64,000 nt of DNA from a virus. The notes beneath the pieces are model-generated. The model searched no databases. It was not told where the DNA came from and was given only the letters and a program-made list of their open reading frames with translations. The translations under genes were made by a program, and so were the position numbers. Positions 53,231 to 57,836 of this stretch are shown piece by piece. The first letter of the stretch is position 1; each line of letters begins with the position of its first letter. The DNA is taken from positions 17,008-81,007 of the IMG/VR virus record IMGVR_UViG_3300020125_000051, one strand, 5' to 3'.

Positions 53231-54820
53231 TTAGATTCTACCTGCGCTAAACGCAGAAACCAATTTAGGCAAGTTTGAATCTGCGCCCGCTACGTCTAGC
53301 ATACCACTATCTGTGGGATTTGCAATAGAAAATCGCGTTGGAGTACATGCAACAACAATCAACTTTGCGTCATGACCTATAAACCTGCGATAATCCTTCA
53401 ATGCAACATGAGGATGTACATTACCAGCCCATGTTTCACTATCAGTCATTACCACAAAGGTATCAACGTCGATGCCACGTTCCTTGGCATATACCATTGG
53501 CAGTGAACAATCTGTACTACCAAAATTGCGATCCTTAGTTCTTTGCATTACTTCAGCTAGTGACATATTAGGTGCTATTCCCAAATCAACAAAATTCTGG
53601 GAGAATCCCATGATTTGGTAGAATGGCTCAGTTCTGGCAATCGTCATTGACATAGCTGCGCAAACTTCGGCAGCAGTTAAGTCAATGCCAGCCATCGACT
53701 GAGACATAGAACCAGAAACATCAAGAGCTATCATGGTACGCTTGTTAGCTGGTTCTACGTACTTAAAGGCACGATAGAAACCATCATCAAGTGCATTTAC
53801 GATAACAGGATTAGTTGCCCAATTCTTTTCATAGGTGTGACTCCATGCGTACTTACGATCACGCTGACCACGCTGATGCACAGTAGATGCTAGCAAATAC
53901 TGGAAAGGATGCAAGCGCGTACGCTGAATCATTTCCTCATCTACAAGCTTATCTGCATATGCACGAGCAAAGTGCATGTCCTCGAAAGCACCAATACGAG
54001 CAAGTCTAGTGATATTACGTACTAGAGCCTGACCGTTAAGCTGTCCATTACCGAAAAGCATCTTCCATACATCAGGAACCTTTAGGAATTGAGTAGGAAT
54101 GGCTTCCCAGGGAAGATTTGGATAACGCTCTAGTGCTGAAAGCACATGTCCTATCATGGTAGATGCTTGCATCCGCTTGAATCCAGCAATTATCAGCGGA
54201 TCTACATTAACTTCATTATCAAAGCCATGCACGAAATCGCCAATTGCCTTATTCAATCCCACAGGATGTGAAAGCATGAGCAAACCCTTGTGGGTCCAGC
54301 CGTTCCGTTGACGGTACTTTACCACCTGATACGCAAGGCTGTCAACATCCTTGCTAATGTACCAATCGGCAATCGCGCGCCGCTTTGCTCGTCCCCAACC
54401 ACCTAGAAGTTTGATATATTCAGCAAACTCGAATAGATGAGTTGACGTGCGACACACCTTAGCTAAGTCCTGCGAAGATTTTGCCTTGCCAAAGGTAAAC
54501 AGCGCGGCCAAACAAAAAATTGCAGGACTATTGCGGAAAGCACGGCCAGACTGTGAGATTTCAACTACAGTATCACGAACTAACTGCTCATCACGCTCAA
54601 TTAGTTCGCGTAGAAAGTTGATGTTATCCTTAGTAAGCTTCTGCTCGTCAACATAGTATGTTCCACCTTCGGTACCCAAAATAAGAAAACGCTCTAGGCG
54701 AGTCTTATCTGTTACCTCAAACGTAAAACCACCAGCATTGTTAGCAACCTGCCGAGGATCTTCTTGCTCTGACTGTGGTATTGGTGTTCCTAGTGTTCTT
54801 GAAAATACGTTGTTTGCCAT
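53231..54820 (-). CDS. rsr: Ro60/Rsr RNA-binding protein (TROVE + vWA)
   Basis: QV.NNAGGF.F, RL.RFLILG.EGGTYY, GGWGR..RRAI..WY, KYRQR.GW.H..L...SHP, AL.RN, DVSGSM MIDAS, TDCSLPM and TDSETW.G..HP motifs. Confidence 0.96.
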   Translation of the reverse strand: MANNVFSRTLGTPIPQSEQEDPRQVANNAGGFTFEVTDKTRLERFLILGTEGGTYYVDEQKLTKDNINFLRELIERDEQLVRDTVVEISQSGRAFRNSPAIFCLAALFTFGKAKSSQDLAKVCRTSTHLFEFAEYIKLLGGWGRAKRRAIADWYISKDVDSLAYQVVKYRQRNGWTHKGLLMLSHPVGLNKAIGDFVHGFDNEVNVDPLIIAGFKRMQASTMIGHVLSALERYPNLPWEAIPTQFLKVPDVWKMLFGNGQLNGQALVRNITRLARIGAFEDMHFARAYADKLVDEEMIQRTRLHPFQYLLASTVHQRGQRDRKYAWSHTYEKNWATNPVIVNALDDGFYRAFKYVEPANKRTMIALDVSGSMSQSMAGIDLTAAEVCAAMSMTIARTEPFYQIMGFSQNFVDLGIAPNMSLAEVMQRTKDRNFGSTDCSLPMVYAKERGIDVDTFVVMTDSETWAGNVHPHVALKDYRRFIGHDAKLIVVACTPTRFSIANPTDSGMLDVAGADSNLPKLVSAFSAGRI

Positions 54821-54824
54821 TTTT

Positions 54825-54850
54825 GAACGACCCCTTTCAAGGGATATATT
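54825..54850 (-). promoter_or_regulatory. Permuted Ro-type helix covering the rsr ribosome-binding site
   Basis: - strand AATATATCCCT-TGAA-AGGGGTCGTTC-AAAA-ATG contains both conserved Y-stem strands (TATATCC, GGGTCG). Confidence 0.6.
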
Positions 54851-54863
54851 GTGTTACATTACG

Positions 54864-54932
54864 TGGCATGGGTAGGATTCGAACCTACTTCCCTAGGACT
54901 GCGTAGCTTTTCCAATTAAGCCAATCCATGCC
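54864..54932 (-). ncRNA. tRNA-like RNA with defective anticodon arm
   Basis: GGCATGG/CCATGCC acceptor, D arm, perfect T arm; only 17 nt between D and T arms. Confidence 0.7.
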
Positions 54933-54935
54933 AAG

Positions 54936-55024
54936 TGGGGACACATGGAGTCGAACCATGTCAACTCAGACTGATCAATCTGAGGGCTAGTTTTGATCAG
55001 TATATACTAGCGTCCAAAGTCCCC
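54936..55024 (-). ncRNA. tRNA-like RNA with enlarged D arm and complementary D/anticodon loops
   Basis: GGGGAC/GTCCCC acceptor, GCTAGT/ACTAGC, CTCAGA/TCTGAG and CATGG-TTCGACT-CCATG. Confidence 0.7.
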
Positions 55025-55030
55025 TTGAAT

Positions 55031-55161
55031 GTTGGATATAGTTTGATAATCGGGGTTTTTGATAGCTCTTGGGCTCCGAATCGAACGGAGACCTTATACT
55101 TTTCAAGTATATATGCTACCTTTTACACTACCCTAGATAACCGACTATCGATCGACCCAAC
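55031..55161 (-). ncRNA. Y-RNA-like Y1: Ro-type stem carrying a complete tRNA-Phe-like cloverleaf
   Basis: GTTGGGTCGA..GTCGGTTATC...CCGATTATC..TATATCCAAC. Confidence 0.8.
55066..55137 (-). tRNA. tRNA-Phe(GAA)-like cloverleaf embedded in Y1
   Basis: TCTAGGG/CCCAAGA acceptor with one mismatch, TATAC-TTGAAAA-GTATA, CTCCG-TTCGATT-CGGAG. Confidence 0.7.
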
Positions 55162-55170
55162 AAAAATCTA

Positions 55171-56397
55171 TTAACCTTCTGCCATGATCTGATTATCTAT
55201 GTTTGCACCAGATGAATCTAGCACATTTCCAGAAATTGATAATCCGCCGCAGCCATCAGTGTGCTTAGCTGGAAAACCAGTACCAGGGAAAATAGGTCCA
55301 AATCTGTTGTTTAACAACGAACCGCGGTTCTGAGCACAGTAAACTGTGTACGAACCACCAACAAGTAAGTTGTTAGTAATTGTTAAGTTAGACTGAATTC
55401 CATGCCCAAAGTTTGGATCATTTGGGGGTCCAGAAGTAAATGTAGCATTGTCATCAGTCATTAAAACTGTGTTATGAATATACTGAATGTTGCTTTCGGA
55501 AGCAGAGCGCGCTGGCCAAACCTGAATACCATCAGTATGTGGATCTGGCGCTACACTATCACCCTTGAACATTCCATGTATATAAGAATCACGAATCGTG
55601 AAAACTGAGTTTGCGTCGCCACCGTTTTCGCAATTGCTAATATCGGCGCCAGTTACAAACAAAAATTCATCACCAAAAGCAGTACCACCATGCATACTAG
55701 GACCACAGAAAACAGACACATGATCCATAGTAGTTACGCCGCCACTATCGGCTGCACCAGCGGTTTCTACAACATAACCTGGAACATTGCAATTAACTGC
55801 AACATTCCTAAATGTTACATTTTGAGCTGTAATTACAGGACATCCAACAATAGTAACGTCATGAATTACTGCACCAGCAGTACCAAAGGTTAATGAGCCA
55901 CTATATGCTGGTAGACTTCCATGCGCGCCTGCCGTTGTGGCATCAGGGAAACCACAGGAACCAGGATTAGCCGCGCAATTGTTACCAGAAGGTGGTGGAC
56001 TCGTAGTAGTCGGAGGTGGAGTTGTCGTTGGTGGTGGATTAGTGGTAGTAGGTGGTGGAGTAGTAGTAGGTGGAACAGTCACCGTTGGTGATGGTGACGG
56101 AGAACCTGTTACTGTAGAACTAGGTGTTGGTGTTGGTGTTGCGGTTAGTCCTGCAATAACCTTTTGCTTGATTATAATACATTGTTGTGCTCTTGTCCGC
56201 TCAGCGGATGTAGTTGCAAATTGTAGGTCTAACTGACATTGTCTTAATAATCGTTGTGCATCGGTTAAATCTGAACTAGCATCCGCTGACGCTCGTTCAT
56301 TATTTGTAAAGATAACTAATGCACCAGTAATTAATGCCATAACTGCAAACCAAATTGCAATTTTCTGCCTTGTTGAACTTATGTGCGTTTCGAGCAT
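55171..56397 (-). CDS. Secreted protein: signal peptide, P/T linker, parallel beta-helix-like domain
   Basis: Hydrophobic N-terminus ending ASA; PPTTT repeats; PDATTAG, I.DSYIH, HTDGIQ and NN.L.GG.Y motifs. Confidence 0.75.
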   Translation of the reverse strand: MLETHISSTRQKIAIWFAVMALITGALVIFTNNERASADASSDLTDAQRLLRQCQLDLQFATTSAERTRAQQCIIIKQKVIAGLTATPTPTPSSTVTGSPSPSPTVTVPPTTTPPPTTTNPPPTTTPPPTTTSPPPSGNNCAANPGSCGFPDATTAGAHGSLPAYSGSLTFGTAGAVIHDVTIVGCPVITAQNVTFRNVAVNCNVPGYVVETAGAADSGGVTTMDHVSVFCGPSMHGGTAFGDEFLFVTGADISNCENGGDANSVFTIRDSYIHGMFKGDSVAPDPHTDGIQVWPARSASESNIQYIHNTVLMTDDNATFTSGPPNDPNFGHGIQSNLTITNNLLVGGSYTVYCAQNRGSLLNNRFGPIFPGTGFPAKHTDGCGGLSISGNVLDSSGANIDNQIMAEG

Positions 56398-57590: not shown

Positions 57591-57764
57591 TTATATCCTA
57601 TCTCTTTGCGAAAACAGACAGGATGAGCTAGTTAGAGTTTAAAGTCTGTTTTCGCCCCTGTTTGAATATTAAATTGTATTTTAGATGCATGTTAGCTTTG
57701 TTTCACCACCCTTTTAGAGGCAAGTATACGGATCTCCCGTATCACCATACGCTAACATGCAACG

Positions 57765-57836
57765 TGCCAAGAGCAGGACTCGAACCTGCGCATCATGTTC
57801 TTCAGACATGCGCTCTGCCAACTGAGCTATCGAGGC
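57765..57836 (-). tRNA. tRNA-Phe(GAA)
   Basis: Loop CTGAAGA; two acceptor-stem mismatches. Confidence 0.82.

What the first reader, a model, noticed from the sequence alone, without database searches (positions are those of the whole stretch)
54821..54852. Ro-binding helix mimic over the rsr Shine-Dalgarno: candidate autoregulatory operator
The - strand leader reads AATATATCCCT-TGAA-AGGGGTCGTTCAAAA-ATG. It contains both conserved Y-stem strands (TATATCC and GGGTCG) in reversed order, joined by a short loop, so the same bulged helix can form as a hairpin. The likely SD (AAGGGG) lies inside it. Inference: free Ro60 binds its own mRNA and blocks translation until titrated by Y RNAs, analogous to ribosomal-protein autoregulation.
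Basis: partly seen in the sequence, partly recalled or inferred. Interest (0 to 1): 0.82.

Follow-up and report, generated by a model that had tools for sequence, protein, structure and literature searches.

The report
Y-RNA-mimic hairpin before phage Ro60 gene
Just before the start of this soil phage's gene for the RNA-binding protein Ro60 lies a small hairpin that copies, with its two strands swapped, the stem by which Ro60 is thought to grip its partner Y RNAs. The same hairpin recurs before Ro60 genes of many phages and Nocardia, so Ro60 probably limits its own synthesis, though nobody has tested this.

Summary
On the - strand, 54848-54826 reads TAT|ATCCCT-tgaa-AGGGGT[C]GTT, 5 nt before the rsr ATG at 54820, and the only Shine-Dalgarno (GAAAGG) lies in its loop and 3' strand. 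The helix matches the lower stem of the seven Y-like RNAs I verified in the window (GGGTCR...TATATCC), with the strand order reversed.

It is not chance. A hairpin of the same design lies 3-26 nt before the rsr start in 59 loci, giving 49 distinct sequences. They include the closest relatives, Streptomyces phages, Microbacterium phage Cece, Sinorhizobium jumbo phage Phosso and about 16 bacterial chromosomes or MAGs, nearly all Nocardia. The stem covaries. The bulged C, the G·U after it and a purine-purine mismatch stay constant.

Best reading (about 0.55): an autogenous translational operator that free Ro60 binds in competition with Y RNAs. Binding and repression are inferred, not shown.

Caveats for this window:
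- It is the only copy with U instead of A after the CG (GUCGUU versus the Y-RNA hallmark GNCGAA).
- A long-range pairing with 55029-55022 competes in the unprocessed transcript.

I found no paper describing this in the held library. Earlier notes of this scan report the same element on at least eight other genomes.

The parts
54826..54848 (-). Leader hairpin: a permuted copy of the Ro-type helix. 5' strand UAU|AUCCCU (54848-54840), loop UGAA (54839-54836), 3' strand AGGGGU (54835-54830), bulged C54829, then GUU (54828-54826).
   Evidence: Sequence. Pair probabilities. The same geometry occurs in 59 rsr leaders.
54831..54838 (-). Shine-Dalgarno (GAAAGGGG). Its first three bases are in the loop and the rest in the 3' strand of the hairpin. 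It lies 10 nt before the start codon.
   Evidence: Read from the sequence. There is no other purine-rich stretch between the hairpin and the ATG. Relatives L014 (AGGAGG) and L044 (GAAAGG) have the SD in the same place.
53231..54820 (-). rsr: Ro60/Rsr homologue of 529 aa, the gene that the hairpin precedes.
   Evidence: Pfam vWA_Ro60 5e-59 and TROVE 1.7e-33. PDB 2nvo E 1e-104 and 1yvp E 2e-97. The MAN... start is shared with L014.
55034..55158 (-). Nearest Y-like RNA. 5' GGGTCG (55158-55153) and 3' TATATCC (55040-55034) enclose a tRNA-Phe-like cloverleaf (55065-55137). It serves as the reference for the helix that the leader copies.
   Evidence: The upper stem GAUAGUCGG/CCGAUUAUC is read.
54866..55024 (-). 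Two tRNA-like modules between the last Y RNA and the leader (about 55024-54945 and 54930-54866). If tRNA-processing enzymes cut them out, the rsr mRNA would begin near 54865 and keep only the local hairpin.
   Evidence: Rfam tRNA 23.7 bits, below the cut-off, for 54866-54930. T-arm GGTTCGA motifs in the sequence. Processing is inferred.
55022..55029 (-). UUCAAGGG, complementary to CCCUUGAA (54843-54836). This long-range pairing competes with the hairpin.
   Evidence: Minimum-free-energy fold of the 256-nt stretch. The hairpin probability falls to 0.32 with 260 nt of upstream RNA. No such drop with 260 nt upstream in the relatives; I saw no equivalent upstream complement in L014 (by eye).

Best explanation
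The hairpin is a cis-acting operator in the rsr mRNA leader that presents the Ro60-binding helix of Y RNAs. That helix is a G/C-rich stem, a variable pair, a bulged C, a G.U pair and then a mismatch. Here it forms as a stand-alone stem-loop over or next to the ribosome-binding site.

The proposed mechanism is as follows. Ro60 that is not occupied by the phage's many Y RNAs binds the hairpin, clamps the weak pairs beyond the bulge and keeps the 30S subunit off the SD and start codon. When Y RNAs are in excess they take up Ro60 and translation goes on. This would match Ro60 output to Y-RNA supply, as ribosomal proteins are matched to rRNA.

Shown here: the structure, its position at the RBS, its likeness to Y stems, and its conservation with covariation. 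Inferred: Ro60 binding, repression and competition with Y RNAs.
For: 1. The hairpin is anchored to the rsr start. The G after the bulge lies 3-26 nt before the start codon in every case. The SD is inside the 3' strand (window, L014, L044, L023, L049, Riptide, Mandalore) or abuts it, as in CGAAAGGAG.

2. It is conserved across distant Ro60 genes of 37-61% identity: 42 phage loci, 17 bacterial or MAG loci, mostly Nocardia, and phages Cece and Phosso.

3. The stem covaries.
- The pair next to the bulge is G-C in 36, A-U in 7 and U-A in 4 sequences.
- Stem sequences range over GGG/CCC, GAG/CUC, UGAG/UUCA and GUGAC/GUUAC.
- 98% of cells are paired.
- The covariation score is 0.635 against 0.250 +/- 0.019 in 500 partner shuffles (0 of 500 reach it), and 0.06-0.18 when partners are slid.

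4. The invariant features are those of the Y-RNA Ro site: bulge C in 46 of 49, U.G or C-G after it in 47 of 49, and then AxA or AxG in 40 of 49. GNCGAA is exact in 22 of 49. This is the GNCGAAN0-1G / 'CGAA' hallmark of bacterial and phage Y RNAs (PMC4201824; PMC12135203).

5. Unusual Y-stem variants recur in the leader of the same genome: GAGCCGGA in L025, GAGTCGAA/ATATTCA in L022, and a U bulge with CUU|GUU in L029 and L040.

6. A strict pattern finds the motif in 27 of 80 loci within 210 nt of the rsr start, against 68 hits in about 966 kb elsewhere.

7. The Ro60 gene is full length.
Against: - No binding or expression data exist for any member.
- The window's copy has U, not A, at the two positions after CG. 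The A there is protected by Rsr in Deinococcus Yrn1 (PMC4201824), so this copy may bind weakly.
- The pairs beyond the bulge have predicted probability near 0 without protein.
- In Streptomyces phages the leader core (GGGCCG) differs from their Y cores (GGGTCG). Over all loci, same-genome likeness barely exceeds cross-genome likeness: 10.05 against 9.65 of 14 positions.
- Many rsr genes lack the hairpin, including Bxz1, GMA2 and most loci below 47% identity. Some have a whole Y RNA in its place.
- My structural alignment was fitted to the structure and the sequences are related, so the shuffle statistics overstate independence.
Confidence: 0.55

Rival explanations
1. Ro60 does bind the leader hairpin, but the effect is not repression. 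Binding could protect the 5' end of the mRNA from nucleases, as Ro60 stabilises Y RNAs. It could load newly made Ro60 in cis, or recruit PNPase to degrade the message.
For: The same structural and comparative evidence as for the main reading. In several clades the SD lies outside the stem, 3-7 nt downstream, so occlusion is not forced by the anatomy. Ro60-Y RNA-PNPase complexes are known (PMC12135203).
Against: The hairpin is always within about 26 nt of the start codon, inside the usual 30S footprint. In the window's own clade it contains the SD. A mere stabiliser would not need that placement.
Confidence: 0.12
2. The hairpin acts without Ro60. It could be an ordinary SD-masking stem, a processing site for RNase III or RNase E that frees rsr from the tRNA/Y transcript, or the site of another protein.
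For: In the window's clade the 5' strand (UCCCU) resembles an anti-SD sequence pairing with the SD. The gene sits in a densely processed tRNA/Y array. No promoter-like site lies between the array and rsr.
Against: This reading does not explain the bulged C, the following G.U and the purine mismatch, which are constant while the stem sequence changes. It does not explain why these features equal the Y-RNA motif, or why the hairpin is tied to rsr in phages and in Nocardia chromosomes that lack tRNA arrays. The stem of 5-9 bp is short for RNase III.
Confidence: 0.15
3. Specific to this window: TATATCC-CUUGAA is the 3' strand of a larger Y-like RNA that encloses the two tRNA-like modules by pairing with UUCAAGGG at 55029-55022. 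On this reading the GGGTCG next to it is incidental.
For: The minimum-free-energy fold of the 256-nt stretch uses this long-range helix. It lowers the local hairpin to probability 0.32. Every other TATATCC of the array is a Y-RNA 3' strand followed 7-10 nt later by a tRNA or tRNA-like 5' end.
Against: The long-range helix has no CG-bulge motif, so it is not a Ro-type stem. No comparable long-range competition appears in L014, L016 or L044, which keep the local hairpin. The GGGG involved also forms the acceptor stem of the first tRNA-like module. Excision of the tRNA-like modules would remove the partner.
Confidence: 0.08
4. Chance juxtaposition of two short words, with no function.
For: Each word is only 6-7 nt, and GGGTCG is not enriched in the window.
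Against: The hairpin is conserved with compensatory changes in 49 distinct sequences at the same place before the same gene. It is about 23-fold enriched near rsr starts.
Confidence: 0.02

Closest known systems
Ro60-binding lower stem of Y RNAs (vertebrate Y RNAs; bacterial and phage YrlA/YrlB/Yrn1; Thermus phage phiLo Yrl1/2; motif GNCGAAN0-1G or 'CGAA')
   Same: Same helix: a G/C-rich stem, a variable pair, a bulged C, a G.U pair and then an A-rich mismatch. In this window both strands carry the same words as the phage's own Y RNAs (GGGTCG / TATATCC).
   Different: The strand order is reversed. The CG-bulge strand is 3' and a 3-7 nt loop closes the end where a Y RNA has its termini. There is no upper stem, no GGTTATC and no tRNA-like module. 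It is part of an mRNA leader, not a stable small RNA. This copy reads CGUU, not CGAA. The Rfam YrlA model scores 14.5 bits against a cut-off of 69.
E. coli thrS operator (threonyl-tRNA synthetase represses its own translation through a tRNA-Thr anticodon-arm mimic next to the SD); from my own knowledge
   Same: A protein's main RNA ligand is copied as a small stem-loop beside the RBS of its own mRNA. The real ligand competes with the operator, so synthesis follows ligand supply.
   Different: Different protein and fold. thrS regulation is proven by genetics and structures, whereas nothing is tested here. The Ro60 mimic is strand-permuted rather than a direct copy.
Ribosomal-protein operators (S8/spc, L1, S15, L20) and the phage MS2 coat-protein operator hairpin; from my own knowledge
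   Same: Feedback by an RNA-binding protein on a leader structure that resembles its primary site. The MS2 operator is likewise a short hairpin with a single bulged base covering an RBS.
   Different: Those systems serve ribosome or virion assembly. Here the partner RNAs are non-coding Y RNAs, and the element is shared by phages and bacteria.
rsr loci with a complete Y RNA directly before the gene (M. smegmatis YrlA/YrlB; mycobacteriophage Bxz1; loci L006, L007, L026, L041, L046, L054)
   Same: A Ro-type helix lies in the transcript just upstream of rsr. Chen et al. report that YrlA and YrlB lie upstream of rsr and come from one precursor (PMC4201824).
   Different: There the helix is the normal terminal stem of a full Y RNA, 17-55 nt or more from the start codon. 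Here it is a minimal permuted hairpin on the RBS.

Membership tests
Y RNA / YrlA (Rfam RF02553, RF00019) | Stem formed by the RNA's 5' and 3' ends, with the GNCGAA strand on the 5' side | tested here: not met
   The CG-bulge strand is on the 3' side and the helix is closed by a 4-nt loop. This copy reads GUCGUU.
Y RNA / YrlA (Rfam RF02553, RF00019) | Upper stem plus a large loop or tRNA-like module; match to the covariance model | tested here: not met
   YrlA model 14.5 bits against a gathering score of 69, E 5.2, and the match is misregistered. There is no GGTTATC after the GGGTCG.
Y RNA / YrlA (Rfam RF02553, RF00019) | Stable small RNA bound by Ro60 | not testable with these tools
   No RNA run holds the phage.
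Autogenous translational operator by ligand mimicry (thrS, r-protein and MS2 type) | Site lies in the regulator's own mRNA at or next to the RBS | tested here: met
   The hairpin spans 54848-54826, the SD 54838-54831 and the ATG is at 54820. The gap to the start codon is 3-26 nt in 59 loci.
Autogenous translational operator by ligand mimicry (thrS, r-protein and MS2 type) | Site resembles the protein's primary RNA ligand | tested here: met
   It has the same helix and constant features as the Y stems of the same genomes. The resemblance is partial in this window (CGUU).
Autogenous translational operator by ligand mimicry (thrS, r-protein and MS2 type) | The protein binds the site | not testable with these tools
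   Needs EMSA, filter binding or CLIP.
Autogenous translational operator by ligand mimicry (thrS, r-protein and MS2 type) | Binding lowers translation and the free ligand relieves it | not testable with these tools
   Needs reporter fusions and toeprinting.
Intrinsic terminator | G+C-rich stem followed by a U run | tested here: not met
   No terminator-like site at the hairpin. The tail is GUUCAAAAAUG.
Sigma-70-type promoter for rsr | -35 and -10 hexamers on the - strand upstream of the gene | tested here: not met
   No - strand match between 54850 and 55170. The only overlapping match is on the + strand, and the total count does not exceed the shuffles.

The most novel reading that the evidence does not exclude
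A widespread feedback circuit, undescribed in the literature I could search, sets Ro60 level against Y-RNA supply in phages and bacteria. Ro60 would read a strand-swapped minimal copy of its Y-RNA docking helix on its own ribosome-binding site, so that Y RNAs act as anti-repressors of Ro60 synthesis. The hairpin would also define the minimal Ro60 recognition element: bulged C, G.U and a purine mismatch on any 5-bp stem.
Probability: 0.5. Interest if true: 0.8.

Novelty: new variant of a known kind. Interest (0 to 1): 0.68.

Why it matters
How cells and phages set the amount of Ro60, a conserved RNA-quality-control protein and human autoantigen, relative to its Y RNAs is not known. In the papers I could search, Y RNAs are described as tethers, gates and tRNA mimics, not as regulators of Ro60 synthesis.

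A conserved operator that copies the Y-RNA docking helix would give Ro60 the same feedback logic as ribosomal proteins and ThrRS. It would assign Y RNAs a role as titrating ligands. The natural variation in 49 sequences would define a minimal Ro60 recognition motif that is easy to test by EMSA and reporter assays.

It is also a practical annotation mark: the hairpin pinpoints the true rsr start and flags Ro60/Y-RNA systems in phage genomes.

Tried and rejected
- **Promoter idea.** I first suspected that TATATCC, preceded by CCGAT and lying 8-11 nt before tRNA genes, was a phage promoter. I dropped this when the full elements showed covarying upper stems with GGGTCR...GGTTATC partners, meaning Y-like RNAs.
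- **Near relatives.** Megablast of the locus against phage records found nothing.
- **Loose structural descriptor.** Any 5-bp stem plus a C/U bulge plus G was uninformative: 4.9 per kb near rsr against 2.8 per kb elsewhere. Only the stricter pattern and the curated alignment discriminate.
- **MAFFT.** It misaligned hairpins with different loop lengths, so the structural alignment was made by script.
- **Covariance model.** Model R1, built from ten hairpins of uniform geometry, found 45 of 46 hits on the rsr strand, mostly leaders. It missed the window's copy because of seed bias, so I did not use it as evidence for the window.
- **Same-genome co-variation.** Over all loci, likeness between leader and Y cores of the same genome is weak: 10.05 against 9.65 of 14. 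Only the rare variants co-occur.
- **Expression data.** No RNA holder is listed among the public runs.
- **Strain variation.** Contigs of four soil runs laid on 54300-55300 were identical to the window, so they gave no information on strain-level variation.
- **Literature.** The review PMC6542706 is not held.

Full report
**What is there**

The window is part of an 81-kb virus record with terminal repeats from soil metagenomes. It has 41.9% G+C and 29 tRNA genes, all on the - strand. The ORF 54820-53231 (-) is a full-length Ro60/Rsr: Pfam vWA_Ro60 5e-59 and TROVE 1.7e-33, with matches to D. radiodurans Rsr 2nvo (E 1e-104) and Xenopus Ro60 1yvp (E 2e-97).

In register with the other examples it is UAU|AUCCCU-ugaa-AGGGGU[C]GUU, at 54848-54826. 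It has six inner pairs, a bulged C54829, then U54846.G54828 and A54847-U54827. The only SD-like stretch, GAAAGGGG (54838-54831), spans the loop and the 3' strand, 10 nt before the ATG.

**The Y RNAs it copies**

Seven elements on the same strand share 5' GGGTCR, 6-14 nt, GGTTATC ... CCGAT-like, 7-8 nt, TATATYY 3'. Their spans are:
- 61630-61573
- 61228-61103
- 60834-60731
- 60416-60296
- 57896-57845
- 56620-56559
- 55158-55034

Their upper stems differ in sequence but always pair. Examples are AAAUUGG/CCGAUUU, GAAUAUUGG/CCGAUAUUC, UAAUUGG/CCAAUUA and GAUAGUCGG/CCGAUUAUC, read. They are therefore real Y-like RNAs with a common lower stem: G-C, G-C, G.U, U-A, bulged C, G.U, AxA.

The leader hairpin reproduces this lower stem pair for pair as far as the G.U after the bulge; its next position is an A-U pair where the Y stems have AxA. 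The CG-bulge strand is placed 3' and a tetraloop closes the end where a Y RNA has its termini. I verified seven.

**Is it chance?**

Within the window alone the case rests on two short words. GGGTCG is not enriched overall, although TATATCC is. The decisive evidence is comparative.

Ro60 relatives were fetched from four sources:
- IMG/VR
- GenBank phages
- GTDB genomes

A hairpin of the same design lies directly before the rsr start in 59 of the loci examined, giving 49 distinct sequences. The carriers are:
- The closest relatives (59-61% protein identity). L014, L044 and L016 keep UAUAUCC.../...GGGUCGA.
- Streptomyces phages of the Stanwilliamsviridae. Phredrick, Faust and Blueeyedbeauty have UAUGCCCA-aaa-UGGGC[C]GAA; Riptide and Mandalore have GCCUU-agaa-AGGGC[C]G.
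- An uncultured clade (L001/L036 and others) with UAUUCCCA...UGGGA[C]GAA.
- Others with quite different stems: L025 GCUCGAA/UUCGAGC[C]GGA, L022 AUUCAAU/AUUGAGU[C]GAA, and L029, L040 and L045 GUUAC/GUGAC[U]GA.
- Microbacterium phage Cece and the Sinorhizobium jumbo phage Phosso.
- About 16 bacterial chromosomes or MAGs, nearly all Nocardia, with CA(U/C)|GCCCC...GGGGC[C]GAA followed by cGAGG and the ATG.

Across six pair columns:
- 98% of cells are standard pairs.
- The pair next to the bulge is G-C in 36, A-U in 7 and U-A in 4 sequences.
- The covariation score is 0.635, against 0.250 +/- 0.019 for 500 partner shuffles (none reach it) and 0.06-0.18 when partners are slid.

A strict pattern finds the motif within 210 nt of the rsr start in 27 of 80 viral loci, against 68 hits in about 966 kb elsewhere. 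That is roughly 23-fold enrichment.

These statistics carry a caveat. I fitted the alignment to the structure and the sequences are related, so the numbers overstate independence. The variety of stem sequences is nevertheless plain.

**What stays constant**

While the stem changes, the following are kept:
- the bulge: C in 46 of 49, U in 3
- the following G paired with U or C: 47 of 49
- a purine-purine mismatch after it: AxA in 29, AxG in 11
- an exact match to GNCGAA: 22 of 49

This is the hallmark reported for bacterial and phage Y RNAs: GNCGAAN0-1G in Chen et al. 2014 (PMC4201824) and the 'CGAA motif' used to find Yrl1/2 of Thermus phage phiLo, which bind its Ro60 in EMSA (PMC12135203). 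Rsr protects the equivalent nucleotides of Deinococcus Yrn1.

Rare Y-stem variants recur in the leader of the same genome:
- GAGCCGGA in L025, in four Y RNAs and the leader
- GAGTCGAA with AUAUUCA in L022
- the U bulge with CUU|GUU in L029 and L040

Over all loci this same-genome match is weak: 10.05 against 9.65 of 14 positions. Streptomyces phages use GGGCCG in the leader but GGGUCG in their Y RNAs. The leader therefore falls within the family's motif range rather than tracking each genome exactly.

**Position**

The G after the bulge is 3-26 nt from the start codon in every case. In the window's clade, and in Riptide, Mandalore, L023 and L049, the SD is inside the hairpin. Elsewhere the SD abuts it, as in CGAAAGGAG.

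The inner stem is moderately stable, with pair probabilities of 0.5-1.0. The pairs beyond the bulge have probability near 0 without protein. This fits a site that needs a protein clamp to become inhibitory.

**Mechanism proposed**

The best-supported reading is an autogenous translational operator. Ro60 not occupied by Y RNAs binds the mimic and blocks 30S access, and abundant Y RNAs compete and relieve the block. The anatomy, the conservation and the likeness to the Y site are shown. Binding, repression and titration are inferred.

I put this at about 0.55. The rivals are:
- **Ro60 binding with another outcome**, such as stabilisation, cis-loading or PNPase recruitment: 0.12.
- **A Ro60-independent SD-masking or processing hairpin**: 0.15. 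It does not explain the constant bulge, G.U and mismatch, or the tie to rsr in Nocardia.
- **A window-specific long-range helix**: 0.08.
- **Chance**: 0.02.

**Window-specific caveats**

1. This is the only one of 49 distinct hairpins with U at the position after CG (GUCGUU). That turns the usual AxA mismatch into an A-U pair. If the A is contacted by Ro60, as in Yrn1, this copy may be a weaker site.
2. In a 256-nt transcript the minimum-free-energy fold pairs UUCAAGGG (55029-55022) with CCCUUGAA (54843-54836). With 260 nt of upstream RNA the hairpin probability falls to 0.32.
   - This helix lacks the CG-bulge motif.
   - No comparable competition appears in L014, L016 or L044.
   - It uses the G run of the first tRNA-like module's acceptor stem.
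   - It would vanish if the two tRNA-like modules (55024-54866) are excised.
3. No sigma-70-like promoter lies between the array and rsr on the - strand, and no terminator sits at the hairpin. rsr is therefore probably co-transcribed with the Y/tRNA-like array and released by processing. This is inference.

**Distribution**

The element is patchy. Many rsr genes instead have a complete Y RNA immediately upstream: L006, L007, L026, L027, L041, L046, L050, L054 and Bxz1. Others have nothing recognisable: Farewell, GMA2 and most viral loci below 47% identity.

**Novelty**

Six full-text searches (four useful) and readings of Chen et al. 2014 and the phiLo paper found no mention of Ro60 autoregulation or of a leader element. 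Rfam 15 has no matching family. The library lacks most subscription papers, so absence is not proof.

Notes of this scan report the same permuted hairpin before rsr on at least eight other genomes, with the same untested reading. They are AI notes, not independent evidence. I reached my reading from my own loci before seeing them.

The kind of mechanism, feedback by mimicry of the primary RNA ligand, is classical (thrS, ribosomal proteins, MS2 coat). Its use by Ro60 and the strand-swapped design appear new.

Noticed in passing
window 61109-61103, 60302-60296, 57851-57845, 56565-56559, 55040-55034 (- strand): Each Y-like RNA ends 7-10 nt before the 5' end of a tRNA gene (Arg, Gly, Phe, Ser) or a tRNA-like module. 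Y-RNA 3' ends may therefore be set by RNase P cleavage of the downstream tRNA.
   Followed up: partly
window 57896-57845 and 56620-56559 (- strand): Two short, cargo-less Y-like RNAs (52 and 62 nt) read GGGTCA instead of GGGTCG. One carries CCAAT in place of CCGAT, with a compensating change in the upper stem.
   Followed up: partly
window 55065-55137 (- strand): The 'tRNA-Phe(GAA)' called by ARAGORN and Rfam sits inside the stem of a Y-like RNA (55158-55034). It is probably that RNA's tRNA-like domain. A separate tRNA-Phe lies at 57764-57836.
   Followed up: partly
window 55024-54945 and 54930-54866 (- strand): Two tRNA-like modules with canonical GGTTCGA T arms are not called by ARAGORN. The second scores 23.7 bits on Rfam tRNA, lacks a normal anticodon arm and ends in CCA.
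   Followed up: partly
window 55171-56397 (- strand): A 408-aa ORF directly upstream of the Y/rsr block has no Pfam match.
   Followed up: no
L029 357-480 and 2432-2454; L040 about 590 and 2437-2455: One phage lineage has a bulged U instead of C, and CUU|GUU instead of UAU|N, in both its Y RNA stem and its rsr leader hairpin.
   Followed up: partly
L009 about 2375-2395, also L010, L012, L017-L019: In Streptomyces phages a separate GC-rich hairpin (GCCGG-loop-CCGGC) lies about 20 nt upstream of the Ro-mimic hairpin. It may be a terminator or a second leader element.
   Followed up: no
L102, L110, L120, L127-L172 (Nocardia), about 1420-1460: Nocardia chromosomal rsr genes have a full Y RNA upstream, ending in ACGCCCG-type 3' strands. 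This is followed by the permuted leader hairpin and the SD.
   Followed up: partly
window 54823-54850 (+ strand): A sigma-70-like match (TTGAAC-16-TATATT, 9 of 12) lies on the opposite strand over the hairpin. The number of such matches in the region does not exceed the shuffles.
   Followed up: no
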